Program-made: the position numbers and the translations under genes
Shown: positions 1 through 41,992 of the stretch, piece after piece
Position numbering within the stretch: the first letter of the stretch is position 1
Layout: each line of letters opens with the position of its first letter
The notes under the pieces: generated by a model
Seen by the model: the letters and a program-made list of their open reading frames with translations, nothing else
Told to the model about the DNA's origin: nothing
The model's database searches: none
Source: a virus
DNA length: 41,992 nt
Virus record (IMG/VR): IMGVR_UViG_3300033753_000082
Reading direction: 5' to 3' (one strand)

Positions 1-127
1 CTTCCTGTGTCTCTGCCCACACAACCGCCAGGAGAGACCGCCGCTACGGACTCCAGCCTGGTGAGTACGACGCGATGCTAGCTCGGCAAGGTGGCCGCTG
101 CTACATCTGCGGGGCTACTCCCTCTCG
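1..127. repeat. Terminal overlap copy 1 (identical to 41866-41992); circular-closure signature
   Basis: Read directly: 1-127 (cttcctgtgtctctgcc...tactccctctcg) recurs base for base at 41866-41992; unit length 41,865 bp. Confidence 0.97.
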
Positions 128-9225: not shown

Positions 9226-9303
9226 CGACCTGCGAAAACGCCCCTGAGGCCCTGAGCACACCTAGTGGACAGACGCGGACTGGATGGGGTACGATCCCCG
9301 GCC

Positions 9304-10200
9304 ATGGGTGCCGATCTGTCCGAGTTGCTCGATGACTGGGTGATCCATCTCAGGGCCACGGGGAAGCGGCCTAGGACGATAGATGCCTACCGCCAGGTTG
9401 CCGATGACTTCCTCGCGCACCTGCGCCGTGAGGGTCTACCGACCGAAGCCGACCGACTTCGCATGGCGCACGTGGAGCACTACCTAGCGTCGCTGTCGGC
9501 GCGGGTGAGTCCGGGCACTGTGGCGAAGTCGTACCGCCACCTTCAGCAGTTGTGCCGCTGGTTGACCGAGGAGGGTGAGGTCTCCCGCAACCCCATGGAG
9601 CGCATGAAGCCGCCCAGGGTGCCCCCGCAACCGGTCCCGGTGCTGTCCAGTGAGGACATCGGCCGGGTCCTGAGCGTGTGCAAGGGGGCCGGCTTCGAGC
9701 AACGTCGCGACATGGCCATTTTCAGGATTTTGCTCGATACCGGCATGCGCTCAGCGGAACTTCTGGGCATGACTACTGAGGACGTCGACCGCCACCAACA
9801 GGTGTGCTGGGTGATGGGCAAGGGTGGCCGGGGACGCGTCGTGCCGTTCGGGGCGAAAGCCGCCGAGGCTCTGTCGCGGTATCTTCGGGAGCGCTCGAAG
9901 CATCCCCGGGCGGCCACGACTGACGCACTGTGGATCGGCCACAGAGGCCCGCTGACGGACTCTGGGCTGAGGCAGATGATGGAGCGCAGAGGCCGAGAGG
10001 CCGGCGTCCCGGGACTCCATCCGCACCGCTGGCGGCACACGTTCGCTCACCTGTGGTTGGCTGGCGGTGGCCAGGAGCAGGACCTTATGAACCTCGCAGG
10101 GTGGCGGAGTCGTGAGATGGTGGCTCGCTACGGGGCCTCAGCGGCCACGATGCGTGCTCATCAGGCGCACCGAAGACTATCTCTGGGCGACAAGTTTTAG
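9304..10200 (+). CDS. int: Tyrosine integrase (XerC/D-like, SAM-like N-terminal domain)
   Basis: HPHRWRHTFAH (HxxR box) and GWRSREMVARYGA (catalytic Y); N-terminal LSELLDDWVIHLRATGKRPRTIDAYRQ. ORF track starts at GTG 9265; ATG 9304 preferred, start uncertain. Confidence 0.9.
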   Translation: MGADLSELLDDWVIHLRATGKRPRTIDAYRQVADDFLAHLRREGLPTEADRLRMAHVEHYLASLSARVSPGTVAKSYRHLQQLCRWLTEEGEVSRNPMERMKPPRVPPQPVPVLSSEDIGRVLSVCKGAGFEQRRDMAIFRILLDTGMRSAELLGMTTEDVDRHQQVCWVMGKGGRGRVVPFGAKAAEALSRYLRERSKHPRAATTDALWIGHRGPLTDSGLRQMMERRGREAGVPGLHPHRWRHTFAHLWLAGGGQEQDLMNLAGWRSREMVARYGASAATMRAHQAHRRLSLGDKF

Positions 10201-12691: not shown

Positions 12692-12888
12692 TGCTGCCTC
12701 CTAGTCCCTCTTCCCTAGTTCGAGCACAAGACTAGGGCAGCTTAGCACGCACTCACCAGTTGCGTCTCAGAACACGGACGCCCCGCCCCCGTCGCAGGCC
12801 AGGGGCGGGACGCCTGTCGATCACTGTAGCGAGCGCTCCCAATCACGTCCAGTCACGGCGGGAGTGTCGCAGAGAGGAGCCCTATCGG

Positions 12889-13770
12889 ATGCCTAGCTAC
12901 TGGTGGCCGAAGGCCGAGCGTGTCCCCGTGGCGCTCCGAGCGTCGCAAGAGCGCACGATCCGCCCCGCCGGACTAGTACTGCACACTGCCGTTTCTAACT
13001 CGTCTCGCCTCGTCCCGAGCGGGGAGGTCCGCTGGCACTTCTACGTCAACCGCGAGGGTAAGGCCTACCAATTCTTCCCTGTCAACCGCCCCGCTGCCGC
13101 GCAGTTGGACGGTAACTACTGGACTGAGAGCGGAGTTGGCCACGGATTCATCAGCGTAGAGACCTGGGATGGCGCGGGGACTAGTGTCTGGCCGGACTAC
13201 AACAAGAACCCTAGCGGCGGACCCGCGTGGACTGATGCTCAGGTGAGGACCATCGCGGAGCTTGCCGCATGGCTGCACACCGAGCACGGAGTGCCGCTCG
13301 TGAAGGCCACCGCCCCGCGTGGTCGTGGAATCGGCTATCACCGACAGTTTACCAACACCAAGCCGTACAAGTGGAATTCATCCCACGCTTGCCCGGGCAC
13401 CAGGCGCATTAACCAGGTCCCCGGAATCATTGCCCGCGCCCAGGAGATCGCCAAGGGCGGCTCCGCTTCCCGACCCTCGGAGGATGACGAATTGGCTTCC
13501 GCTAAGGACGAGATTCTTAAGGCTATCGCCGACGCCCGAAAGGCTCTCGGCGAGCGTCACAACACGCGCCGCAAGGAGTACGAGGCCCTTCTGAAAAACA
13601 TTCAGGAGAATGAGCAGCACCTGATTTATCAGCGCGAGCACTTGGTTAAGCCGCTCGCGGCCGAGGTTGCCGAGCTTAAGGCTCAGCTTGCCGAGATTAA
13701 GTCCAAGCTGGACGACGCTAAGTGCCAGGGTCAGGGTAAGACCGGCCCACTCCCGCGTACCGCTGAGTGA
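12889..13770 (+). CDS. Endolysin: N-acetylmuramoyl-L-alanine amidase (amidase_2/PGRP-like) with a coiled-coil C-terminus
   Basis: LVLHTA, WHFYVNREGKAYQ, ISVETW, GIGYH, SSHACPG match the amidase_2 pattern. Start at internal ATG with AGAGAGGAG RBS. The ORF-track start 12760 adds an Arg-rich non-coding-looking extension. Confidence 0.8.
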   Translation: MPSYWWPKAERVPVALRASQERTIRPAGLVLHTAVSNSSRLVPSGEVRWHFYVNREGKAYQFFPVNRPAAAQLDGNYWTESGVGHGFISVETWDGAGTSVWPDYNKNPSGGPAWTDAQVRTIAELAAWLHTEHGVPLVKATAPRGRGIGYHRQFTNTKPYKWNSSHACPGTRRINQVPGIIARAQEIAKGGSASRPSEDDELASAKDEILKAIADARKALGERHNTRRKEYEALLKNIQENEQHLIYQREHLVKPLAAEVAELKAQLAEIKSKLDDAKCQGQGKTGPLPRTAE

Positions 13771-13999: not shown

Positions 14000-14009
14000 G
14001 TATGGGGTG

Positions 14010-14052
14010 GGGGGAGTGAGTTTCGCGGATCGATCGCGATCGTCACTCCCCC
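14010..14052 (+). terminator. Hairpin after the lysis cassette
   Basis: Stem GGGGGAGTGA/TCACTCCCCC (10 bp); loop contains the 12-bp palindrome CGATCGCGATCG; no T-tail. Confidence 0.5.
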
Positions 14053-14168
14053 GTCTCTGAATAGTACCCCCGATGCTTAGCGCGTGGGTGCGGAAAAGAA
14101 AATACCCCCGCGTTTCGAGCGACTGGGCCATAGATCTTCGAGTGCCCCCGCGAAGGGAACTGCCCCCA
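14046..14168 (+). repeat. Array of five C5 motifs (CTCCCCCG, TACCCCCG x2, TGCCCCCG, TGCCCCCA)
   Basis: Starts at 14046, 14065, 14103, 14143, 14161; inverted copies (TGGGGGT, CGGGGGTA, TAGGGGGCC) at 14538-14572 on the other side of the HNH gene. Confidence 0.55.
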
Positions 14169-14515
14169 TGAACATTGACTACCTACCGTCGCAGGGTGAC
14201 CGTTCAGGAATCATCAGGAGTTCGTGGTCGGGTACGCGAGGTACTTTCCCAAAGTCTGTGCGACAGAGAATCCTTGAGCGCTATCCGACCTGCAACTGGC
14301 CCGGCTGCGAAAAGCCTTCGGAAGTCGCTGACCACATTGTTCCTTGGGCCGAGGCGGTTCGTTTGGGTTGGGATGTTGACGAGATCAACGACATCAGCAA
14401 CGGTCAAGGCTTGTGCAACGAACATCACGAAGTAAAAACTAAAGAAGAAAGATTAAGAGGAATAAAGCGTAAGTCACGAACACGCGAGCGCGAGCGTCAT
14501 CCCGGTTTGCTGTGA
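14168..14515 (+). CDS. HNH endonuclease
   Basis: ADHIVPW...NGQGLCNEHHEVKT is an HNH motif; internal ATG of ORF 14084..14515; AT-rich 3' end. Confidence 0.85.
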   Translation: MNIDYLPSQGDRSGIIRSSWSGTRGTFPKSVRQRILERYPTCNWPGCEKPSEVADHIVPWAEAVRLGWDVDEINDISNGQGLCNEHHEVKTKEERLRGIKRKSRTRERERHPGLL

Positions 14516-14659
14516 CTTTCTGTGACTTCTGAGAGGGTGGGGGTTACCCTCCGTCACCGGGGGTAGGGGGCCAACGACCGGCATAGCCATTCACGGTGTG
14601 TACGGGCAGAGACCATTTTGTTATCAGTTTGTTATTTCCCCGGTAAACAGTGAGGAGTC

Positions 14660-16750
14660 ATGGCTTCACATGAAGTTTTGATTGACGGCGTTCGGTACGT
14701 TCCGGCTACCGGGGACCGGACGCCCGGACGAATCGGAATTGGCGTCACCACGAGGAACCGCCGCGAAGTCTTCGCGGAAACGATCGAGCACATTCGGAAG
14801 TTCGCTCCCGATGGCGCGGCGATCGTCGTAGTGGACGACGCTAGCGACGATCCGGTGCCGGACGCCACTTATCGATTCCTCGGGCAAGCTGGAATCGCTA
14901 GGGCCAAGAACAAGTGCATTGAGCTTCTGGCCGACGCTGGCTGCGAGCACTTTTTCCTCTTTGATGACGACTGTTACCCCATCGCGGACGGATGGTGGCG
15001 TCCGTACGTAGAGAGTGATGAGCCTCACCTGATGTACGCGTGGGGCGATGAATACTTCCGTACGGACAAGCTCGTTGGGTATCTGTGGCCCAAGGGTTGC
15101 ATGCTCTATGTGGAGCGACGCGTCCTTGAACGCGTCGGCGGCCTTGACCCGGTTTTCGGCGTCTGGGGCCTGGAGCACATGTCGTGGAGCGACCGTATCC
15201 ATAACGCGGGCTTAACGACGTGTCGCTATCAGGACGTTCCGGGAAGCGAGAAGCTATTCCTGTCGAAGGACCGCGAGCAGCCCGACTTCCCCTCGTCCGT
15301 ACCGCTGGAGACGCGGCTTATCGCTAACGTGCGCGCTGCTGAGCGATACCGCGACTCTGACGCGTTCGTGCCCTACCGCGATACGCCAGCGGATCGTGAC
15401 CGCGTGGCGCTGTCTATCCTTGTTCCGTCGGTAGCGTCCCGCCGCTCGTCCTTCTTGCCCAAGATCATGGACGAGCTATACGGGCAGCATGAAGCGCTGC
15501 CTCCTGAGGATCGTCGACGTGTTGAAATCCTAGTCTTGACCGATGCTGAGGGCCTGGACCTCGGGACCAAGCGGAACAAGATGGTTGCCCTGGCGGAGGG
15601 TGAGTACGTCGCGTTCGTAGACGACGATGACAGGATCGCGCCTGACTACCTCCGTTCGCTGCTTGACGCGACGGAGTACGGAACAGACGTAATCACGTTC
15701 CGGGCAGAGGTGCGAATCAACGGCGGCCGCCCGAAGCTATGCGTCTATTCGGCGGAATGGGACGCGGACGAAAACACGGAGGCGGAGTTTCGCCGGATTC
15801 CGAACCACCTAGCCGCTGTCCGCCGCGAACTCGCGCTACGGACTCCGTTCCCGAGACTCAACAAATCTGAGGACTCGTCCTACGCGAAACAGCTTAAACC
15901 GCTGCTACAGTCCGAGCACCATATACCTCGAATTCTCTACTACTACGACTTCAACACCAAGACGACAGTTGCTCAGCGACAGTCGGACATTGAGCGGGTT
16001 CAGAAGCCGGTCGTGGACGTTGTGATCCTGTCGAAGGCGTCTACGGACGAGCTTCGCGAGATGACCGAGCGCACGATTGAAACGTGCCTCTCTGGTGCTG
16101 GCGGCCACCCGCTCAACATTATTGTGCTGGAGCAGGAGCCTGGAATCAGGTACCGAAACGCCATTACGATTCACCGGCCGGGCGAGTTCGCATATAACAA
16201 ATTTGCTAACGAGGGTATTAGAACTGGTTCGGCCCCGTGGATCCTCGTAGCGAACTCTGACCTGGAGTTCGGAGACGGATGGTTGGATCCGCTGCTGAAG
16301 ACCAGGCACCCGCTGATGTCCCCGGTCAGCTCGACCGAGCCGCGCCAGGCCCGGCTCACGCGGGCGGAATCCGGCTACGAGAATGGCAAGCACTTTTCCG
16401 GATGGTGCTTCATGATTTCTCGTGAGCTGTGGGAAAAGTTCGGCGGCCTGGATGAGGACTTCATTTTCTGGTGTGCTGACGACTCGGTTATTGAGCAGGC
16501 CAAGCGTCACGGTATCCGGCCGCTCGTGGTGCCCGCCTCGAAGGTCAAGCACTTGATTTCGAAGACGGTCGGCGGCAGGGGACACACGGCTAATGACCCC
16601 ATGGATGGGGATTTGACCTGGGCGATGGTGGAGCTTTTCAACGCCAAGTTCGGCGCTAACAAGTTTCTGAACGACCAACGCTATATTCAGTGGCGAAAGG
16701 CCAACCCGGAAAAGGTTCGAGAGATCAGGGAGCGTTTCAAAGATGGCTAG
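14660..16750 (+). CDS. Multidomain glycosyltransferase: three tandem GT-A (GT2-like) domains, 696 aa
   Basis: Three Rossmann-like starts (IGIGVTTRNR.., LSILVPSVASR.., VDVVILSKAS..), each followed by an acidic DxD-type motif (FDDDCYP, FVDDDDRI, ANSDLEF). Confidence 0.8.
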   Translation: MASHEVLIDGVRYVPATGDRTPGRIGIGVTTRNRREVFAETIEHIRKFAPDGAAIVVVDDASDDPVPDATYRFLGQAGIARAKNKCIELLADAGCEHFFLFDDDCYPIADGWWRPYVESDEPHLMYAWGDEYFRTDKLVGYLWPKGCMLYVERRVLERVGGLDPVFGVWGLEHMSWSDRIHNAGLTTCRYQDVPGSEKLFLSKDREQPDFPSSVPLETRLIANVRAAERYRDSDAFVPYRDTPADRDRVALSILVPSVASRRSSFLPKIMDELYGQHEALPPEDRRRVEILVLTDAEGLDLGTKRNKMVALAEGEYVAFVDDDDRIAPDYLRSLLDATEYGTDVITFRAEVRINGGRPKLCVYSAEWDADENTEAEFRRIPNHLAAVRRELALRTPFPRLNKSEDSSYAKQLKPLLQSEHHIPRILYYYDFNTKTTVAQRQSDIERVQKPVVDVVILSKASTDELREMTERTIETCLSGAGGHPLNIIVLEQEPGIRYRNAITIHRPGEFAYNKFANEGIRTGSAPWILVANSDLEFGDGWLDPLLKTRHPLMSPVSSTEPRQARLTRAESGYENGKHFSGWCFMISRELWEKFGGLDEDFIFWCADDSVIEQAKRHGIRPLVVPASKVKHLISKTVGGRGHTANDPMDGDLTWAMVELFNAKFGANKFLNDQRYIQWRKANPEKVREIRERFKDG

Positions 16751-17501
16751 AGTGTCGGTTATCGTTCCTTGGTCTCACGGGTGTCCGCACAGAGAAGCCG
16801 CTTTCGACTACATCGTGCGGCGTTGGCGCAGGCTGTCAATGCCTCTCGAAGTAGGCCACCCTAGCGGGGACACCTGGTGCAAGGCCGAGGCGGTGACCGA
16901 CGCGCTCAGCCGCTCAGACGCTGACATTCTCGTTATCGCTGACGCGGACGTCTGGACGCCGGGCGTACGCAAGGCTATTAAGAAGGTTGAAAGCGGCGCT
17001 CCCTGGGCGATTCCTCACCGCACCGTCTACCGATTGTCGCGGCTCTCGACCAAGCGTGTCCTGAGCGGCTCAGCGCTGGACGAGAGCCTTCCGACGGACG
17101 AGGAGCCGTACGTAGGGATCGAGGGAGGCGGAATCGTCGTTCTCCCTCGATCCACGTACCTCTCAGTCCCGCTTGACCCACGATTCCGGGGGTGGGGGCA
17201 AGAGGATGAGTCCTGGGCGCTAGCGCTTCGGACTCTAGTCGGGGAGCCGTGGCGCGGAGCTGATCCGCTGTTTCACCTGTGGCACCCACCGCAGAAGCGG
17301 CTTAACCGACGATTTGGTAGCCACGAGTCACGAGATCTTTTCAACCGTTACCGGCTTGCTAGCGGCCGGCCAGACATGATGTCCGATCTGCTTACCATCC
17401 CTAGAGAGGAGGTGCGACGTGGCAAGAGGGACGCTTCACGCCCCGAAAGAGAACAGACGACGCCGCAACGCACCTACTCACGACAAAATCCTGCTCAGTA
17501 G
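16743..17501 (+). CDS. Glycosyltransferase (GT-A; galactosyltransferase C-terminal-like GWGQEDE motif)
   Basis: VSVIVPW..., ILVIADADVW (DxD), RFRGWGQEDESWALAL; start overlaps the previous stop. Confidence 0.7.
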   Translation: MARVSVIVPWSHGCPHREAAFDYIVRRWRRLSMPLEVGHPSGDTWCKAEAVTDALSRSDADILVIADADVWTPGVRKAIKKVESGAPWAIPHRTVYRLSRLSTKRVLSGSALDESLPTDEEPYVGIEGGGIVVLPRSTYLSVPLDPRFRGWGQEDESWALALRTLVGEPWRGADPLFHLWHPPQKRLNRRFGSHESRDLFNRYRLASGRPDMMSDLLTIPREEVRRGKRDASRPEREQTTPQRTYSRQNPAQ

Positions 17502-17841
17502 GGATGGTGAGGTCCGTGGACCGGAGCTTTCTGAGCTTACAAACCGCGATGACTGGCACCCGCTAGTCGTGAAATGGTACGAGACCTGGCGCCGCTCTCC
17601 GCAGGCTCAGGCGTTCGAGTCTACGGATTGGATGCGGCTCGGCATCCTGGCACCGCTCGTGGAGCGCTACGCGCTGAGGCCTTCTGCCTCTGCGCTTTCG
17701 GAGATTCGCCAGAACGAGGAACGTCTGGGCGCGACGGTCGTCGACCGCATGCGCGCTCGAATGATTGTCGAGGAATCAGAGGACGCGCAAGTTCTGTCGC
17801 TCGTGAAGAAGCCTAGTGCAGCGGAGCTATTTGAGGATTAG
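17419..17841 (+). CDS. Terminase small subunit (putative)
   Basis: Position directly upstream of the large terminase; basic N-terminus ARGTLHAPKENRRRRNAP; GTG start 6 nt after GAGAGGAGG. Confidence 0.65.
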   Translation: MARGTLHAPKENRRRRNAPTHDKILLSRDGEVRGPELSELTNRDDWHPLVVKWYETWRRSPQAQAFESTDWMRLGILAPLVERYALRPSASALSEIRQNEERLGATVVDRMRARMIVEESEDAQVLSLVKKPSAAELFED

Positions 17842-17853
17842 GGAGGGGGAGCG

Positions 17854-19503
17854 TTGACGGTTTCCCCCATTGTCACTGTCCCCGACTTCGTTGAGCACGC
17901 GCACGAGGTTAAGACTCTGGGCCTTGAACTTATCCGCTGGATCCAAACCTACCTCGTACAACCGGATGGCGACAACGCAGGTGGCCCGTTCCGCCTGACG
18001 AGGGAGCAGAAGAACTTTCTATGCTGGTTCTACGCGGTGGACGAGCGGGGTCGGTTCAAGTACCGACGCGCCGTGCTGCGTCGCTCGAAGGGTTGGGGTA
18101 AGTCTCCGTTCCTCGGAGCTATCTGCATCGCGGAACTGTGTGGCCCCGTCCGGTTTAGCCACTGGGACGATGACGGAGATCCCGTTGGCATGCCACACCC
18201 GATGCCTTGGGTGAACCTGGCCGGCGTCTCGGAGACGCAGACGCAGAACACCATGACTGTCATTCTCTCGATGCTGGAGAATGCCCCGCTCCTTGACGTC
18301 GTGGACCTGGACGTCGGCCTTACGCGGATCTACACACCGGGCGGTGGCCGGCTTGTCCCAATCACCGCGTCGTCCAGCACGCAGGAAGGCGCTCGTCCCT
18401 CGTTCGCTGTCTTGGACGAGACGCACCACTGGACCGAGAGCAACGGAGGATGGAAGCTCGCTCGGGTCATTCGACGGAACCTCGCGAAGGCTCGCGACGG
18501 CTCGGCGCGCTCGATCGAGACTACGAACGCGCACGCCCCCGGCGAGGAGAGCGTTGCGGAGGCCTCGTATCAGGATTACCTAGCGATTCAGGAGGGACGA
18601 ACGCGGGCCGCTGGATTGCTGTACGACTCCCGTGAGGCTCCGTCTGACATCGACCTCTCGGACCCCGAGCGGCTGATGGAAGGGCTAAAGGCAGCCTACG
18701 GAGACGCGCACTGGGTCGACCTAGAGCGCATCCGTGAAGAGGTTTACGACCCTTCGACTCCGCCAGAGGAATCTCGCCGATTCTACCTGAACCAAATCGT
18801 CGCGGCCGCTGACTCGTGGGTGGCTCCGCACGAGTGGGACGCGAACGAGAATCCGGATCTTCCGCCGCTTAAGTTCGCCACCCCTGGCAAATGGCGTGAC
18901 GGCGACACAGTGACGCTGGGATTCGACGGGGGTCTCACTGACGACTCGTCCGCGCTCGTGGCCATGCGCGTCTCGGACGGAGCGCCGTTCCTCCTCGGAC
19001 TCTGGGAAAAGCCGGCAGGGCCACAGGGGAACGGATGGATAGTAGACAAGTCGGAAGTTCGGGACACGGTAGACCACGCCTTTGCGACGTTAGACGTGGT
19101 TGCGTTTTTCTCTGACGTCGCCTACTGGGAAACCGACGTGGACATGTGGCGTGACGAGTACGCCGAGCGGCTACTGGTGAAGGCCACGACGCGTCATGCA
19201 ATCGCGTGGGACATGCGCGCTCATCAGGCGGAGACAGTGCGAGCTACCGAGGCGCTAAACCGGGCGATCGTTGACGGTGAGCTTCCGCACAACGGGGACC
19301 CGAGGCTACGTCGCCATGTTTTGAACGCGCGCCGTCGACCTAACCGTTGGGGAATGTCCTTCGGGAAGGAGACGAGAGAGTCAACGAAAAAGGTTGACGC
19401 GCTCGCGGCAATGCTTCTGGCTCGAATGGCGCGGACAAAGGTTTTGGCTGAGGGAGTTTTGTCCAAGAGGCGCGGCCGAGTCGGTCGCCTCGTTGGTTTC
19501 TAA
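17854..19503 (+). CDS. Terminase large subunit
   Basis: Walker A-like RSKGWGKSPF, Walker B-like FAVLDETHHW, nuclease-domain length and position; TTG start after GGGAGG. Confidence 0.9.
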   Translation: MTVSPIVTVPDFVEHAHEVKTLGLELIRWIQTYLVQPDGDNAGGPFRLTREQKNFLCWFYAVDERGRFKYRRAVLRRSKGWGKSPFLGAICIAELCGPVRFSHWDDDGDPVGMPHPMPWVNLAGVSETQTQNTMTVILSMLENAPLLDVVDLDVGLTRIYTPGGGRLVPITASSSTQEGARPSFAVLDETHHWTESNGGWKLARVIRRNLAKARDGSARSIETTNAHAPGEESVAEASYQDYLAIQEGRTRAAGLLYDSREAPSDIDLSDPERLMEGLKAAYGDAHWVDLERIREEVYDPSTPPEESRRFYLNQIVAAADSWVAPHEWDANENPDLPPLKFATPGKWRDGDTVTLGFDGGLTDDSSALVAMRVSDGAPFLLGLWEKPAGPQGNGWIVDKSEVRDTVDHAFATLDVVAFFSDVAYWETDVDMWRDEYAERLLVKATTRHAIAWDMRAHQAETVRATEALNRAIVDGELPHNGDPRLRRHVLNARRRPNRWGMSFGKETRESTKKVDALAAMLLARMARTKVLAEGVLSKRRGRVGRLVGF

Positions 19504-22333: not shown

Positions 22334-23266
22334 ATGGCTAACACCAACAGCCCATACACTCCTGAGCAGATCGCCCGAGTTGCGCTGTCGCTTGTTCGTG
22401 GTGACCTTGTTCTGTCCCGCACTGTTAACCGTGACTACGAGGCCGAGTTTACCGGTGGCGTTGGTTTCTCGGTTAACGTCCGGAAGCCTGCGACGCTGAC
22501 CGCTCGGGAGCAGGAGCTTCGTGGGAAGAACGTCTCTTACGGCTCCGGCATCACCACTGACAGGTTCTCTGAGACTGTCGTTCCGGTGTCGCTGGACAAG
22601 ATGATTTACAGCGCTATCGACGTCTCGGACGAGGACCTGACGCTCAACCTGGAGGACTTCTCTCGCCAGGTGCTGGCTCCGCAGATCACCGCCGTTGCCG
22701 AGGGTTGTGAGAACGCGGTTGTGGCCGAGATGCAGAGCCTCACTGAGGACGATTACCTTAGCAACACGTACGACGCTGAGAATCCGCACAAGACGTTTGT
22801 CGCGGCTCGCAAGGAGCTTCGTGACCTGCGCGTCCCCGCTAGCAACCTGTACGCGGCGGTCGGTACTGGAGTTTACGCTGACCTGCTCAACTCGCAGGCC
22901 CTCCGCAGCGTCGCGGAGAGCGGCAGTGACGACGCTCTTGCCGACGCGACTGTCGGCCGGCTCCACGGGTTCACCGTGATTGAGTGCAACCGGCTTGACG
23001 AAAACGAGATGATTTTCTACCATCGCGACGCTTTCACTCTGGCGGTTCGCGCTCCTCGCGTTCCTGAGGGTGTCGCGTTCGGCGCGTCGGTTTCCGGCGA
23101 CGGCTTCGCGATGCGGTACATCCGCGACTACGACTCCTCGCTTCTGGCTGACCGCTCCGTCGTTTCGACGATCATCGGCACTCAGGCCATGACTGTCGTT
23201 CGCCAGGACGACGGCTCTGAGGTTACCCCGGCTATCCGCGTTCTGGTTCCTGAGGACGGCTCCTGA
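22334..23266 (+). CDS. Major capsid protein
   Basis: 310 aa, position after the scaffold, followed by connector genes. Confidence 0.85.
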   Translation: MANTNSPYTPEQIARVALSLVRGDLVLSRTVNRDYEAEFTGGVGFSVNVRKPATLTAREQELRGKNVSYGSGITTDRFSETVVPVSLDKMIYSAIDVSDEDLTLNLEDFSRQVLAPQITAVAEGCENAVVAEMQSLTEDDYLSNTYDAENPHKTFVAARKELRDLRVPASNLYAAVGTGVYADLLNSQALRSVAESGSDDALADATVGRLHGFTVIECNRLDENEMIFYHRDAFTLAVRAPRVPEGVAFGASVSGDGFAMRYIRDYDSSLLADRSVVSTIIGTQAMTVVRQDDGSEVTPAIRVLVPEDGS

Positions 23267-24366: not shown

Positions 24367-24771
24367 GTGGCAGAGCTTGTCATCTTCCCCGACGCTGAGG
24401 CTTGGGCGTGTCAGTACCTGTCCGAGCGTCTTGGGCAGATCTCCGAGCCATACACGGCCGATGTCTACGTGTCGAACGAGGTCCCGACGACGCGAGCGCC
24501 GCGAATGGTGATAGTCCGCCGCGACGGTGGCCAGCGGCTGGACGTAGCCCGCGAGGTTGCCCGCCTGGGCGTCCGCGTCTTCGCCCCGTCCGACGAAGAA
24601 GTATCGGATCTAACTCAGATGGTGCGCGCTCTTCTTGCAGCGTCTGTCGGAGAGGGACCGGTCCGGCGGCACGTCGAAATCGCTGGGCCGTCTCGCATTC
24701 TCGAAGCGTCGCGCCATCCGGTCAGATTTTTCACAGTTGAGCTTACTGTCAGGGGAACATCTTATGGCTGA
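24367..24771 (+). CDS. Tail terminator protein
   Basis: 134 aa immediately before the major tail protein; pattern typical of actinophage tail terminators. Confidence 0.65.
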   Translation: MAELVIFPDAEAWACQYLSERLGQISEPYTADVYVSNEVPTTRAPRMVIVRRDGGQRLDVAREVARLGVRVFAPSDEEVSDLTQMVRALLAASVGEGPVRRHVEIAGPSRILEASRHPVRFFTVELTVRGTSYG

Positions 24772-25306
24772 TTCGAGCCTTGTTGACGTTGCCGTTACCG
24801 GCATCGTCGCCTATGCGGAAACCTCGGAGCCCGCGCCGGTTGACGCAGACACCCCGCTTTCCGAGAACTGGCGGGACGTCGGCTACATTTCCGAGGACGG
24901 AATTACCGAGGCGCGTGAGCGCTCAACGACCAACATTATCGCGTGGCAGAACGCCGAGGTTGTGCGGACGGTTACTACCGAGTCCAGCATGACCGTTTCG
25001 TTTACGATGATCGAGACCAACCCTAACAGCCTCGCGCTGTACTACGGTGCCGAGGTTGCCCCGGACGGTTCGATCGAGATTAACCCTGCCAACTCTGGCG
25101 GGCGTCGCTCGTTTGTCATTGACTACATCGACGGTGACAAGGTTGTTCGCCTTTACATTCCAGAAGGCGAGCTTACCGAGACTGGTGAGCAGACGCTGAC
25201 GTCTGGCGGTGCTGTCGGCTACGAGGTGACGATTACCGGCTACCCGTCGACGCTGGGTTACACGGCTAAGAAATGGTACTCGGCCTTGGCCGGTACCGGT
25301 AGCTAA
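24764..25306 (+). CDS. Major tail (tube) protein
   Basis: Internal ATG with AGGGGAA RBS and 8-nt overlap with the previous gene; followed by a strong hairpin and chaperone genes. Confidence 0.8.
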   Translation: MADSSLVDVAVTGIVAYAETSEPAPVDADTPLSENWRDVGYISEDGITEARERSTTNIIAWQNAEVVRTVTTESSMTVSFTMIETNPNSLALYYGAEVAPDGSIEINPANSGGRRSFVIDYIDGDKVVRLYIPEGELTETGEQTLTSGGAVGYEVTITGYPSTLGYTAKKWYSALAGTGS

Positions 25307-35510: not shown

Positions 35511-36095
35511 ATGCTTATCGGGCTGACCGGCTATGCGCGGGTTGGTAAGGATACCGCAGGACGGATCCTGGCGGAGAGGTACGGACTCAAGCGGTATGCC
35601 TTCGCAGACAAGCTGCGGGAGTTTGTGTATTACCTCAATCCGCTAGTTATCGCTAGGGATGACAATTGTCTCGCACCTCTGCGTGAGGTGGTTGACCTGT
35701 ATGGGTGGGACGAGGTTAAAGATCGTTTCCCGCTGGCTCGCGCCTATTTACAGGATGTTGGGGTCTGGTTTCGGAAGAATGTTGAGGAGGATTATTGGGT
35801 CAGGATCGTTGCCCAGAACTGGCTTCTGGACGGTAAACCTAACGCGGTGATTACTGACGTCCGTTTCCCTAACGAGGTTTCGTGGGTGCGGAGTAACCAG
35901 GGTGTCATCGTACGTGTCAACCGGGACGGGTACGGACCGGTTAACGGACACGAGTCAGAGAAGGCTCACGAGCTTCCCTGCGATCTTGAGATCACAAACC
36001 CCGGATCGCTAGATGGGTTTACCGCTGAGCTTTCCAAGGTGTTTCCAAAGATTAGGGACATCGCGTTCACGAGGTTGGTTGATGCGTCGTATTGA
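35511..36095 (+). CDS. Deoxynucleoside monophosphate kinase-like P-loop kinase
   Basis: P-loop GLTGYARVGKDT at the N-terminus, ITDVRFPNE, HESE; strong RBS GAGGAGG. Confidence 0.7.
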   Translation: MLIGLTGYARVGKDTAGRILAERYGLKRYAFADKLREFVYYLNPLVIARDDNCLAPLREVVDLYGWDEVKDRFPLARAYLQDVGVWFRKNVEEDYWVRIVAQNWLLDGKPNAVITDVRFPNEVSWVRSNQGVIVRVNRDGYGPVNGHESEKAHELPCDLEITNPGSLDGFTAELSKVFPKIRDIAFTRLVDASY

Positions 36096-41790: not shown

Positions 41791-41992
41791 CCGCTGAGAC
41801 GGTCGACGTCTGCGGTACGGAGGCGGGCTATACGAGGCACAGGAGGCGTGGGGAGACACCCTGCGCTTCCTGTGTCTCTGCCCACACAACCGCCAGGAGA
41901 GACCGCCGCTACGGACTCCAGCCTGGTGAGTACGACGCGATGCTAGCTCGGCAAGGTGGCCGCTGCTACATCTGCGGGGCTACTCCCTCTCG
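41787..41992 (+). CDS. Endonuclease VII, N-terminal part (continues at base 3 after circular closure)
   Basis: GTGA overlap with the primase-helicase stop; VTAETVDVCGTEAGYTRHRRRGETPCASC... runs without stops into the duplicated 127 bp. Confidence 0.8.
   Translation, partial: MTAETVDVCGTEAGYTRHRRRGETPCASCVSAHTTARRDRRYGLQPGEYDAMLARQGGRCYICGATPS
41866..41992. repeat. Terminal overlap copy 2 (identical to 1-127)
   Basis: Read directly; see copy 1. Confidence 0.97.

What the first reader, a model, noticed from the sequence alone, without database searches (positions are those of the whole stretch)
14660..17501. Four glycosyltransferase catalytic domains (a triple GT-A fusion plus a fourth GT) inserted between HNH and the terminase
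The 696-aa product contains three consecutive GT2-like GT-A folds, each with its own nucleotide-binding start and acidic DxD-type motif (FDDDCYP, FVDDDDRI, ANSDLEF). The next gene adds a galactosyltransferase-like domain (ADADVW, GWGQEDE). They sit at the head of the late operon.

The codon usage looks visibly AT-richer than neighbouring genes, judged by eye and not computed. An AT-rich spacer with a TTTGTTAT direct repeat (14617-14635) precedes them, suggesting horizontal acquisition.

Some mycobacteriophages carry GT operons that glycosylate capsid and tail-tube proteins (established, from memory). A single polypeptide with three GT domains capable of building a multi-sugar glycan would be unusual. 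Targets could equally be host cell-wall polymers (receptor masking).
Basis: partly seen in the sequence, partly recalled or inferred. Interest (0 to 1): 0.65.

Follow-up and report, generated by a model that had tools for sequence, protein, structure and literature searches.

The report
Phage virion glycosylation gene cassette
A temperate actinobacterial phage carries, as the first two genes of its late operon, four sugar-transferring enzyme domains (three fused in one protein) that most likely decorate the C-terminal serine of its capsid and tail-tube proteins, a known kind of system in an unusual fused form that appears to be far more widespread among phages than reported.

Summary
The two ORFs exist as described: 14660-16750 (696 aa, three GT-A modules) and 16743-17501 (252 aa, β4GalT-like GT-A). 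All four acidic motifs are invariant in 40-44 homologs, so none looks degenerate. The pair sits between HNH and TerS, where GT-less relatives have their cos junction, and probably forms genes 1-2 of the left arm.

Not confirmed: the genes are not AT-richer (GC3 0.719 and 0.664 vs 0.696±0.062). The TTTGTTAT repeat is real but looks like an ancestral left-end element.

The triple fusion is absent from 50,697 isolated phage records but not unique: about 40 full-length protein clusters, including prophages of Leclercia, Erwinia and Rhizobium. More often the same three modules are split across adjacent genes.

Module 2 and the 252-aa protein are homologs of Che8 gp108 and gp109, from a phage with proven virion glycosylation. 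Capsid and tail-tube proteins end in ...DGS and ...TGS, as in Che8 (...TGS, ...DGS). In 17 of 19 independent capsid or tail-tube lineages next to these GTs the protein ends in Ser/Thr (baseline 14%), and GT-less relatives do not.

Best explanation: late, cytoplasmic O-glycosylation of capsid and tail-tube C-termini (confidence about 0.65). It is a new variant of a known kind, and no glycan has been demonstrated.

The parts
14084..14515 (+). HNH endonuclease. It is the last gene of the right arm in this lineage and has the lowest GC3 in the window (0.549).
   Evidence: PHROG HNH families, E 2e-14. Soondubu has HNH as its last gene. GC3.
14516..14659 (.). Spacer of 144 nt. It contains the probable physical genome end (cos) at about 14584|14585, a CTGTGACTT x2 repeat (14510-14529, straddling the HNH stop), the TTTGTTAT x2 repeat (14617-14635) and the GAGGAG RBS (14652-14657).
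   Evidence: Sequence read. An independent contig (L010, 96% identical) starts exactly at 14585. The junction GCAT|AGC matches the right end (...GGGGCAT) and left end (AGCGCC...) of Soondubu and the left end of Cappuccino.
14660..15394 (+). GT module 1 (aa 1-245) of the 696-aa protein. Nucleotide-binding VVVDDAS (aa 56-62), DxD in FDDDCYP (aa 101-107), and a ppGalNAc-T/beta4GalT-like GGLDPVFGVWGLEH (aa 160-173).
   Evidence: Pfam GT2 23.9 bits (cut-off 23.3) and Glyco_transf_7C. phrog_1579/2456. 55% identical to stand-alone GTs of mycobacteriophages whose GT lies near the right genome end, as in Che8. 43% to LittleE gp18 and 40% to JonJames gp25. D59, D60 and D102-D104 invariant in 40 homologs.
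15395..15994 (+). GT module 2 (aa 246-445). VLTDAE (aa 292-297) and DDDD in FVDDDDRI (aa 319-326). Homolog of the N-terminal GT domain of Che8 gp108.
   Evidence: Pfam GT2 35.8 bits. 41% identical to Che8 gp108 aa 10-194, E 2e-39. 50% to LittleE gp15. D295 and D321-D324 invariant. PDB profile hits to PglI, GalT1 and SpsA.
15995..16750 (+). GT module 3 (aa 446-696, then stop). An N-x-D variant of the DxD motif (ANSDLEF, aa 531-537) and GGLDEDFIFWCADD (aa 595-608). The most divergent module.
   Evidence: Pfam GT2 18.9 bits, below the cut-off. phrog_22332 E 5e-57. 44% to the C-terminal half of LittleE gp17. hhalign against module 1 gives E 3.4e-4 over 150 columns and aligns FDDD with ANsD. N532, D534, D598 and D607 invariant.
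16743..17501 (+). Fourth GT (252 aa): a stand-alone GT-A with DxD (ADADVW, aa 66-71) and WGQEDE (aa 151-156). It is a distant homolog of Che8 gp109. Its disordered C-terminal tail overlaps the TerS start.
   Evidence: phrog_1721 'galactosyl transferase', E 5e-12. Che8 gp109 24% identity, E 2e-9. AlphaFold pLDDT 91.7. Foldseek best match beta-1,4-GalT1, E 1e-7. D67, D69, E154, D155, H178 and H181 invariant in 44 homologs.
17419..17841 (+). Terminase small subunit. It is translationally close-packed with the GT genes, with a GAGGAGG RBS inside the 3' end of the 252-aa gene.
   Evidence: Pfam Terminase_7, E 1e-37. Junction sequence.
17854..19503 (+). Terminase large subunit. It places the phage near Arthrobacter and Curtobacterium siphoviruses.
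   Evidence: phrog_9, E 2e-84. 68% aa identity to Arthrobacter phage Soondubu TerL.
22334..23266 (+). Major capsid protein, a predicted glycan acceptor. Its C-terminus is ...VPEDGS.
   Evidence: phrog_283. C-terminus read. Che8 capsid ends ...NKTGS. GT-less relatives end ...EPVA and ...ASGE.
24764..25306 (+). Major tail (tail tube) protein, 180 aa, a predicted glycan acceptor. Its C-terminus is ...LAGTGS.
   Evidence: phrog_117, E 4e-46. C-terminus. Che8 tail tube ends ...YSDGS. GT-less relatives end ...PVTA and ...VSPE. These are the only two real genes in the window that end in GS.

Best explanation
The two genes form a virion-glycosylation cassette. They are transcribed and translated with the terminase genes at the head of the late operon. 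They produce two soluble cytoplasmic enzymes carrying four GT-A catalytic domains that use host nucleotide-sugars. Acting in sequence, these domains attach and extend an O-linked oligosaccharide of up to about four transfer steps. The acceptor is the C-terminal Ser of the major capsid protein (...DGS-COOH) and of the tail-tube protein (...TGS-COOH), so the assembled head and tail are coated with glycan.

SHOWN: the domains, their conservation, their homology to the Che8 GTs, their position, the absence of membrane segments, and the C-terminal Ser/Thr signature with its co-occurrence with these GTs.

INFERRED: that glycan is actually attached, which residue carries it, which sugars are used, and the order of the four domains. 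Which domain primes the protein is unknown. The window has no homolog of Che8 gp110, the GT that a secondary source calls essential in Che8. Module 2 is the only module shared by all the compared systems.
For: (1) Four GT-A domains with invariant catalytic-type motifs.

(2) Homology to GTs of Che8, a phage with glycosylated virions: module 2 is 41% identical to the gp108 N-domain, and the 252-aa protein matches gp109 at E 2e-9. Glycans at the C-termini of capsid and tail-tube subunits of mycobacteriophages are reported by Freeman et al. 2023, as summarised in PMC12619734 and PMC12363180.

(3) Che8 capsid and tail tube end ...TGS and ...DGS. The window's end ...DGS and ...TGS.

(4) In unrelated phages carrying the same GT set, the capsid and tail tube are the genes that end this way. 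In L011 they end ...PAGS and ...VAGS, the only 2 of 31 genes ending in GS. In the Leclercia prophage they end ...GATS and ...QPTS.

(5) Of ten ORFs picked by their C-terminus alone, the eight that PHROGs recognises are major head or major tail proteins; the other two had no PHROG match.

(6) Survey of fetched loci: 18 of 20 capsid and 29 of 30 tail-tube homologs end in S/T, against 251 of 1743 other ORFs. By independent lineage this is 17 of 19, binomial P 6e-13.

(7) The GT-less relatives Soondubu and Cappuccino lack the signature.

(8) Within the window's own capsid family, capsid and tail-tube termini co-vary in 9 of 9 loci.

(9) The position immediately upstream of the terminase genes is conserved in actinophages, an enterobacterial prophage and metagenomic phages.

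(10) Neither protein has a membrane segment, and the genes overlap.
Against: No glycan has been observed; everything here is sequence inference.

The window lacks a Che8 gp110-like GT (tblastn E > 0.09), so the priming step has no assigned enzyme.

The converse test was only partly met. Of three further phages whose capsid and tail tube end in S, one (L132) has a GT next to TerS, and it is of the unrelated GT4 fold. Two (L133, L134) show no GT in the roughly 20 kb that could be read. One phage without the signature (L135) has a GT2-TPR gene next to TerS.

Module 3 has N-x-D rather than D-x-D and scores below Pfam's GT2 cut-off.

The best whole-chain fold matches are polysaccharide polymerases (K4CP, heparosan synthase), which would equally fit glycan polymer synthesis.

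The primary paper could not be read, so gene-level details for Che8 come from secondary sources and memory.
Confidence: 0.65

Rival explanations
1. Host cell-envelope modification. The GTs alter a wall polysaccharide, teichoic-acid-like polymer or glycolipid of the actinobacterial host, masking the receptor (superinfection exclusion) or changing the serotype of lysogens.
For: The phage is temperate: tyrosine integrase at 9265-10200. GT2-type domains commonly build wall polymers. The best fold matches include the polysaccharide polymerases K4CP and heparosan synthase 2. JGI names some homologs 'glycosyltransferase involved in cell wall biosynthesis'.
Against: Neither protein has a membrane segment (max hydropathy 0.98). 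The window has no flippase, GtrA/GtrB-type partner or polyprenol-linked machinery. The genes are embedded in the late operon, overlapping TerS, not near the integrase or immunity region. No promoter-like site was found upstream, although the scan covers only sigma-70-type consensus. The same position is kept in many unrelated phages. This hypothesis does not explain the capsid and tail-tube C-terminal signature.
Confidence: 0.12
2. Glycosylation of other proteins: minor virion proteins (for example tail fibres or portal) or host proteins, rather than, or in addition to, the capsid and tail-tube C-termini.
For: In a large group of low-GC phages with the same GT set, a 734-1022-aa protein downstream of the tape measure also ends ...IEPTT, so there may be more than two acceptors. 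ppGalNAc-transferases, which modify internal Ser/Thr, are among the best fold matches.
Against: In the window only the capsid and tail-tube genes end in GS. No other recurring signature was seen. In Che8 the reported sites are the capsid and tail-tube C-termini.
Confidence: 0.1
3. DNA glycosylation. The GTs add sugars to modified bases of phage DNA to evade restriction.
For: Phage GTs often do this. Module 1 has a weak hit to the TET-associated glycosyltransferase family (PF20691, 16.1 bits). A dNMP kinase is encoded at 35511-36095.
Against: The TAGT hit is far below the 27.5-bit cut-off. The annotated window has no TET/JBP, thymidylate-synthase-like hydroxymethylase or other base-modifying gene. 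Homology is to the protein-glycosylating Che8 set. Four sequential GT domains are not typical of DNA mono- or di-glycosylation.
Confidence: 0.04
4. Synthesis of a free or secreted polysaccharide during infection, as a multi-domain polymerase like K4CP or the chlorovirus hyaluronan synthase system.
For: The best whole-chain fold matches are dual-GT-A polymerases.
Against: Identity to those enzymes is only 10-16%. There is no export machinery and no membrane anchor. This hypothesis does not explain the C-terminal signature.
Confidence: 0.04

Closest known systems
Mycobacteriophage Che8 virion-glycosylation genes 108-110 (Freeman et al. 2023, Cell Host Microbe 31:1216; read only through secondary sources)
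   Same: Phage-encoded soluble GT-A enzymes. Module 2 is 41% identical to the gp108 N-domain, and the 252-aa protein matches gp109 (E 2e-9). Capsid and tail tube share a C-terminal [T/D]-G-S. The genes lie next to the HNH/cos/terminase junction: Che8 has them at the right end just before HNH, and the window has them just after the cos end.
   Different: The window has no gp110 homolog. Modules 1 and 3 have no clear Che8 counterpart; module 3 shows only a weak 26% match to gp109. Three domains are fused in one chain. The window also lacks the C-terminal half of gp108, which has no GT-module match and which I take to be methyltransferase-like from memory (not tested). The host lineage is Micrococcales-type, not Mycobacterium.
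Split versions of the same GT set in isolated actinophages: LittleE/Omega (cluster J) gp15, gp17, gp18; Gordonia phages Yvonnetastic/JonJames gp25 + gp27; Forza gp93
   Same: The same three modules at 40-50% identity: module 1 to LittleE gp18 and JonJames gp25; module 2 to LittleE gp15; modules 2+3 to JonJames gp27. JonJames has them directly upstream of TerS, with an HNH between them.
   Different: There they are two or three separate genes, in other orders, sometimes interleaved with a Ser/Thr kinase or HNH. None of the 50,697 phage records has all three in one ORF.
Triple-fusion orthologs in prophages and metagenomic phages (Leclercia adecarboxylata, Erwinia endophytica, Serratia ficaria, Rhizobium/Shinella, Luteimicrobium, Propionimicrobium)
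   Same: The same 1-2-3 fused architecture of about 680 aa at 47-96% identity over at least 95% of the length. The same position upstream of the terminase. In the two lineages read (the Leclercia prophage L012 and its relative L019, and the metagenomic phage L011), capsid and tail tube end in S.
   Different: The partner gene differs. In L011 and L012 the fusion is followed by a Che8-gp110-like GT (41% and 34% identity), not by the gp109-like GT found in the window and in L013. The hosts are Gram-negative in several cases.
Bifunctional dual-GT-A glycosaminoglycan polymerases (E. coli K4 chondroitin polymerase K4CP, PDB 2Z86; Pasteurella heparosan synthase 2, PDB 8VH7)
   Same: Several GT-A (GT2-type) catalytic domains in tandem in one soluble chain. 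They are the best whole-chain structural matches (E 1e-15 and 5e-12).
   Different: Only 10-16% identity. They have two domains, not three. They build polymers by alternating transfers, and nothing here indicates polymerisation.
Polypeptide GalNAc-transferases (GT27) and beta-1,4-galactosyltransferases (GT7)
   Same: GT-A fold with a C-terminal WG-x-E/D motif. Modules 1 and 3 and the 252-aa protein hit Pfam Glyco_transf_7C weakly. The 252-aa model best matches beta4GalT1. ppGalNAc-T2 is among the top hits for the fusion.
   Different: Very low identity (14-18%). No lectin domain and no membrane anchor. Family membership was not established.

Membership tests
GT-A fold glycosyltransferase (GT2-like), applied to each of the four domains | Rossmann-like alpha/beta/alpha GT-A fold | tested here: met
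   AlphaFold models have pLDDT 86.4 (fusion) and 91.7 (252 aa). Foldseek top hits are all GT-A enzymes at probability 1.00. The per-module mapping of the fold hits was not given by the tool. Module 3 is supported additionally by hhalign against module 1, E 3.4e-4.
GT-A fold glycosyltransferase (GT2-like), applied to each of the four domains | DxD-type metal/nucleotide-sugar binding motif, conserved | tested here: met
   Module 1 D102-D104, module 2 D321-D324 and the 252-aa protein D67/D69 are invariant. Module 3 has the variant N532-x-D534, also invariant in 40 sequences. It is conserved, but its catalytic competence is unproven.
GT-A fold glycosyltransferase (GT2-like), applied to each of the four domains | Score above Pfam's GT2 (PF00535) gathering threshold for the domain on its own | tested here: inconclusive
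   Module 1 scores 23.9 and module 2 scores 35.8 against a cut-off of 23.3, so both are met. Module 3 scores 18.9 and the 252-aa protein 11.8, so neither is met. No CAZy/dbCAN assignment could be run.
GT-A fold glycosyltransferase (GT2-like), applied to each of the four domains | Glycosyl transfer activity | not testable with these tools
   This needs an enzyme assay.
Phage virion O-glycosylation system (Che8 type) | Phage-encoded homologs of the Che8 GTs gp108, gp109 and gp110 | tested here: inconclusive
   A gp108 N-domain homolog is present (41%). A gp109 homolog is present but distant (24%, E 2e-9). A gp110 homolog is absent, although gp110-like genes follow the same fusion in L011 and L012.
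Phage virion O-glycosylation system (Che8 type) | Acceptor sites at the C-termini of the major capsid and tail-tube subunits | tested here: met
   This was tested at sequence level only. Both proteins end in [D/T]-G-S, as in Che8. The signature is absent from GT-less relatives and is enriched in 17 of 19 lineages with these GTs.
Phage virion O-glycosylation system (Che8 type) | Glycan physically present on virion proteins and dependent on the phage GTs | not testable with these tools
   This needs mass spectrometry or glycostaining of virions from wild-type and deletion phage.
Lysogenic-conversion Gtr-type O-antigen/wall glycosylation cassette | Membrane-bound bactoprenol GT (GtrB-like) plus flippase (GtrA) plus a serotype-specific membrane GT | tested here: not met
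   Neither protein has a transmembrane segment. No such partners exist in the window. GtrB is only a distant fold hit, rank 50.
TET-associated DNA glycosyltransferase (TAGT, PF20691) | Family score above threshold and an adjacent TET/JBP dioxygenase | tested here: not met
   The score is 16.1 bits against a 27.5 cut-off. No TET/JBP-like gene was found.
Dual-GT-A glycosaminoglycan polymerase (K4CP / heparosan synthase) | Sequence-level family membership and alternating polymerase activity | tested here: not met
   There is structural resemblance only: 10-16% identity and a weak profile hit at E 4e-5 spanning two modules. Activity is not testable.

The most novel reading that the evidence does not exclude
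Virion glycosylation is not an actinophage peculiarity. A portable set of three GT-A modules (fused or split), plus a variable fourth GT, moves between phages of Actinomycetota, Enterobacterales, Rhizobiales and low-GC (33-40% GC) hosts that are probably Bacteroidota. Wherever it lands, the major capsid and tail-tube proteins carry a C-terminal small-residue-Ser/Thr 'tag' that serves as the acceptor or recognition signal. If so, the tag would be a simple sequence predictor of glycosylated virions, and the fused enzyme would be a self-contained glycan assembly line.
Probability: 0.45. Interest if true: 0.75.

Novelty: new variant of a known kind. Interest (0 to 1): 0.55.

Why it matters
Phage-encoded glycosylation of virions has been demonstrated only in a few mycobacteriophages, where it shields particles from antibodies. 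This window offers three things:

- **A compact form of the machinery.** Three catalytic domains sit in one polypeptide with a fourth next door, all with host-independent signatures. This is convenient for biochemical dissection: one mutation per DxD motif should give a ladder of truncated glycans.
- **Comparative evidence for much wider distribution.** The same gene set and the same C-terminal signature occur in prophages of Gram-negative bacteria and in abundant low-GC metagenomic phages.

If confirmed, this would change the view that virion glycosylation is rare outside actinophages. It would also allow glycosylated phages to be predicted from sequence alone.

Tried and rejected
(1) Megablast of 14000-18000 against 50,697 phage records found no match, so the phage itself is not in the collection.

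(2) The primary paper (PMC10527164) is not held. Six literature searches found only secondary statements, and nothing on a C-terminal motif or on distribution outside actinophages.

(3) I first read the related-loci output as about 45 triple fusions. Checking reading frames showed only 7 of 50 are single ORFs; 41 are a mod2+3 gene followed by a mod1 gene. I corrected the claim.

(4) The sigma-70 promoter scan found nothing upstream of the GTs, and terminator-like hits were at the chance level. This is uninformative for an actinobacterial phage.

(5) Spacer similarity to relatives by blastn-short gave only 7-12-nt matches. The cos inference rests on the contig end and the GCAT|AGC junction, not on alignment.

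(6) The internal-duplication hypothesis for the three modules is rejected. Profile-profile E-values between modules are weak (0.13 to 3e-4), while each module is 40-55% identical to a different stand-alone phage GT. They are three distinct lineages fused.

(7) The within-family converse test (S-ending capsid predicts a GT nearby) was only partly successful.

(8) The fold search does not report which residues align, so fold hits could not be assigned to modules.


Full report
1. WHAT IS THERE

The window is a circularly assembled phage genome. Its first and last 127 bases are identical, giving about 41,865 bp at 60.9% GC.

The finding's two ORFs are real: 14660-16750 (696 aa) and 16743-17501 (252 aa). 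Both are on the + strand and overlap by 8 nt, ATGGCTAG.

- Upstream lie an Amidase_2 endolysin (12760-13770), a small holin-like ORF and an HNH endonuclease (14084-14515).
- Downstream come TerS (17419-17841, Pfam Terminase_7, E 1e-37), TerL, portal, protease, scaffold, major capsid, connectors, tail tube, chaperones, tape measure and minor tail genes.
- The rest of the genome encodes DNA polymerase I, primase/helicase, exonuclease, RusA, a dNMP kinase, a WhiB-like protein and a tyrosine integrase, so the phage is temperate.
- By TerL (68% aa identity), its nearest isolated relatives are Arthrobacter and Curtobacterium siphoviruses of 40-45 kb. No phage record matches at the nucleotide level.

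2. THE FOUR DOMAINS

Pfam finds three separate GT2 stretches in the 696-aa protein. PHROGs resolves three glycosyltransferase families over aa 5-240, 250-442 and 450-679, plus one family that spans the last two.

Scanned on their own:
- Module 1 scores 23.9 bits and module 2 scores 35.8 bits for PF00535 (cut-off 23.3).
- Module 3 reaches only 18.9 bits.

An AlphaFold model built on 40 full-length homologs has mean pLDDT 86.4. It shows three alpha/beta modules separated by low-confidence linkers near residue 245 and at residues 434-445. Its best PDB matches are multi-GT-A enzymes (K4 chondroitin polymerase at E 1e-15, heparosan synthase 2), polypeptide GalNAc-transferases and collagen LH3.

- Module 1: D59/D60 and D102-D104.
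- Module 2: D295 and D321-D324.
- Module 3: N532/D534, D598 and D607.

Module 3 therefore carries a conserved N-x-D variant rather than a decayed motif. A profile-profile alignment places it on the FDDD of module 1 (E 3.4e-4 over 150 columns).

The modules are not recent duplicates of one another. Each is 40-55% identical to a different stand-alone phage GT.

The 252-aa protein belongs to a family of more than 760 proteins. Most are labelled 'hypothetical', with no precomputed Pfam domain. Its model is confident (pLDDT 91.7) and best matches beta-1,4-galactosyltransferase 1 (E 1e-7). D67, D69, E154, D155, H178 and H181 are invariant.

Neither protein has a membrane segment.

3. WHAT DID NOT HOLD

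The genes are not AT-richer than their neighbours. GC3 is 0.719 and 0.664, against 0.696+-0.062 for 39 genes. The HNH gene is the real outlier.

The TTTGTTAT x2 repeat is real, but it is conserved in a 96%-identical relative. GT-less relatives carry TTTGT-type motifs at the equivalent place upstream of TerS.

That relative's contig (L010) starts exactly at window 14585. The window reads ...CCGGCAT|AGCCATTC... there. Soondubu's right end reads ...GGGGCAT and its left end AGCGCC..., and Cappuccino's left end also begins AGCGCC.... I infer that the cos end lies at about 14584/14585, so the two GT genes are genes 1 and 2 of the left arm. The repeat is then more likely an ancestral left-end element (a TerS-binding or late-regulatory site) than an acquisition scar.

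In Soondubu and Cappuccino, TerS is gene 1; in Soondubu the last gene is HNH. Neither has a GT in the stretches read. The pair is therefore an insertion at the genome-end junction. That conclusion rests on synteny, not composition.

4. HOW UNUSUAL IS THE FUSION?

Among 50,697 isolated phage records, none has the three modules in one gene. The best cases cover 80-87% of the query in two or three pieces from separate genes: LittleE and other Omega-type phages, JonJames and Yvonnetastic.

A mod2+3 gene is common in Gordonia phages and in Omega. Module 1 alone is common in mycobacteriophages whose GT lies near the right genome end, as in Che8.

In the 5.8-billion-protein collection, however, about 40 clusters are full-length fusions of about 680 aa, at 47-96% identity and at least 94% coverage. 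They include proteins from Shinella, Rhizobium, Leclercia, Serratia, Erwinia and Propionimicrobium genomes.

Of the 50 fetched loci that contain all three modules:
- 7 are true single-ORF fusions.
- 41 (GC 0.32-0.40) have a mod2+3 gene followed by an overlapping mod1 gene.
- 1 (Yvonnetastic) has mod1 followed by mod2+3.
- 1 has a mod3 gene followed by a mod1 gene.

I had at first over-counted fusions and corrected this. The three modules behave as a set that travels together, and the fusion is one recurrent, minority arrangement of it.

The fourth gene varies. The window and L013 have the gp109-like GT (58% identity between them). L011 and the Leclercia prophage (L012) instead have a Che8-gp110-like GT (41% and 34% identity).

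The position is conserved, directly upstream of the terminase genes. This holds in JonJames, in two unrelated metagenomic actinophages and in a Leclercia prophage with a Q-antiterminator, holins and a GH19 endolysin upstream.

5. WHAT IT MOST LIKELY DOES

Module 2 is 41% identical to the N-terminal GT domain of Che8 gp108. The 252-aa protein is a distant homolog of Che8 gp109.

Che8 is one of the mycobacteriophages in which phage-encoded GTs attach O-linked glycans to the C-termini of the capsid and tail-tube subunits. This comes from Freeman et al. 2023, as summarised in PMC12619734, PMC12363180 and PMC11256854. The primary paper was not available.

Reading the C-termini:

| Phage | Capsid ends | Tail tube ends |
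|---|---|---|
| Che8 | ...NKTGS | ...YSDGS |
| Window | ...PEDGS | ...AGTGS |
| Soondubu (no GT) | ...EPVA | ...PVTA |
| Cappuccino (no GT) | ...ASGE | ...VSPE |

These are the only two real genes in the window that end in GS.

The pattern generalises:
- In L011, a different capsid and terminase type, the capsid ends ...VPAGS and the tail tube ...VVAGS. They are the only 2 of 31 genes ending in GS.
- In the Leclercia prophage they end ...TGATS and ...AQPTS.
- I picked ten ORFs in other loci by C-terminus alone. The eight that PHROGs recognises are major head or major tail proteins, in phages of 33% to 60% GC; two had no PHROG match.

In a phmmer survey of all fetched loci, 18 of 20 capsid and 29 of 30 tail-tube homologs end in Ser/Thr, against 14.4% of 1,743 other ORFs (Fisher P 1e-34). 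Collapsed to independent lineages at 40% identity, this is 9 of 10 capsid and 8 of 9 tail-tube lineages (binomial P 6e-13).

Within the window's own capsid family, 24 of 120 homologs end in S/T. Capsid and tail-tube termini co-vary in 9 of 9 loci read.

I therefore conclude that the cassette most likely glycosylates the C-terminal Ser of the capsid and tail-tube proteins in the cytoplasm, late in infection, using host nucleotide-sugars. No sugar-nucleotide genes are present.

6. LIMITS

No glycan has been seen. The priming enzyme is unassigned: a secondary source calls Che8 gp110 essential, and the window has no gp110 homolog. Module 2 is the only module common to all the systems compared, which makes it a candidate, but this is inference.

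The converse prediction was only partly borne out:
- L132, with an S-ending capsid and tail tube, has a GT next to TerS, but of the GT4 fold.
- L133 and L134, also S-ending, show no GT in the part of the contig that could be read.
- L135, without the signature, has a GT2-TPR gene beside a glycine-rich protein.

So not every phage GT next to a terminase uses this tag, and the tag may be served by other GT families.

7. RIVALS

- **Host-envelope modification** is disfavoured. There are no membrane segments and no flippase or polyprenol-linked partners. The genes are embedded in the late operon, and this hypothesis does not explain the tag.
- **DNA glycosylation** is disfavoured by the absence of any base-modifying gene and by a far sub-threshold TAGT score.
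- **Polymer synthesis** rests only on 10-16%-identity fold matches.
- **Additional protein acceptors** remain possible. In the low-GC group, a 734-1022-aa protein after the tape measure also ends ...IEPTT.

8. VERDICT

The feature is a new fused variant of a known kind of system (phage virion glycosylation).

It is a C-terminal Ser/Thr signature on capsid and tail-tube proteins that tracks this GT set across bacterial phyla. I could not find this described in the searchable literature, though the primary paper was not readable.

Noticed in passing
window 1-127 and 41866-41992: The first and last 127 bases are identical. The window is therefore a circularised assembly of a complete genome of about 41,865 bp.
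   Followed up: partly
window 14584-14585: This is the probable physical genome end (cos). An independent 96%-identical contig starts exactly here. The junction GCAT|AGC matches the right end (...GGGGCAT) and left end (AGCGCC...) of Arthrobacter phage Soondubu and the left end of Curtobacterium phage Cappuccino.
   Followed up: partly
window 14510-14529: A second direct repeat, CTGTGACTT x2 with a 1-nt spacer, straddles the stop codon of the HNH gene. Its function is unknown.
   Followed up: no
window 14084-14515: The HNH endonuclease gene has the lowest GC3 of the 39 genes measured (0.549 against a mean of 0.696). It, rather than the GT genes, is the compositional outlier.
   Followed up: no
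window 16743-17501 and its family (P0121-P0240): The 252-aa protein belongs to a family of more than 760 proteins. Nearly all are labelled 'hypothetical' and have no precomputed Pfam domain, many from Streptomyces, Nocardia and Micromonospora-type genomes. The model (pLDDT 91.7) is a clear GT-A with an invariant DxD, so this is an unannotated GT family.
   Followed up: partly
L013 2797-6029 (Logan ERR7250480, 41,624-bp contig): A related phage has a ClpP-like protease gene and a 531-aa VldE-like (pseudo-glycosyltransferase, GT20-like) gene between its GT pair and TerS. This suggests that the slot at the left genome end collects sugar-related cargo.
   Followed up: no
L046 9379-11583, L064 19144-21372 and relatives (low-GC IMG/VR contigs): In the low-GC phage group, a 734-1022-aa protein just after the tape measure also ends in ...IEPTT or ...PIETT, like the tail tube (...VIPT). 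It has no PHROG match and may be a third glycan acceptor.
   Followed up: no
L132 670-2740 and L135 2195-4275: Two phages of the window's capsid family have a glycine-rich-domain protein (Pfam Gly_rich_2) followed by a GT directly upstream of TerS. The GT is GT4 in L132 and GT2+TPR in L135. This is a different GT cassette in the same genomic slot.
   Followed up: no
L012 8736-9883 (Leclercia adecarboxylata GCA_027497565.1 prophage): An IS3-type transposase gene lies immediately upstream of the triple-fusion GT in this enterobacterial prophage. A trypsin-like protease gene sits between it and the lysis genes.
   Followed up: no
window 12760-13770: The endolysin (Amidase_2 domain, aa 70-213) has a long C-terminal coiled-coil-like region (aa ~235-325). 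It lies at the far right of the genome just before HNH, not after the tail genes.
   Followed up: no
L001 4589-5092 (mycobacteriophage LittleE gene 16): A Ser/Thr-kinase-domain gene sits between the GT genes of LittleE and Squint. Records disagree on whether LittleE gene 17 is a methyltransferase or a glycosyltransferase. Its C-terminal half is 44% identical to module 3.
   Followed up: partly
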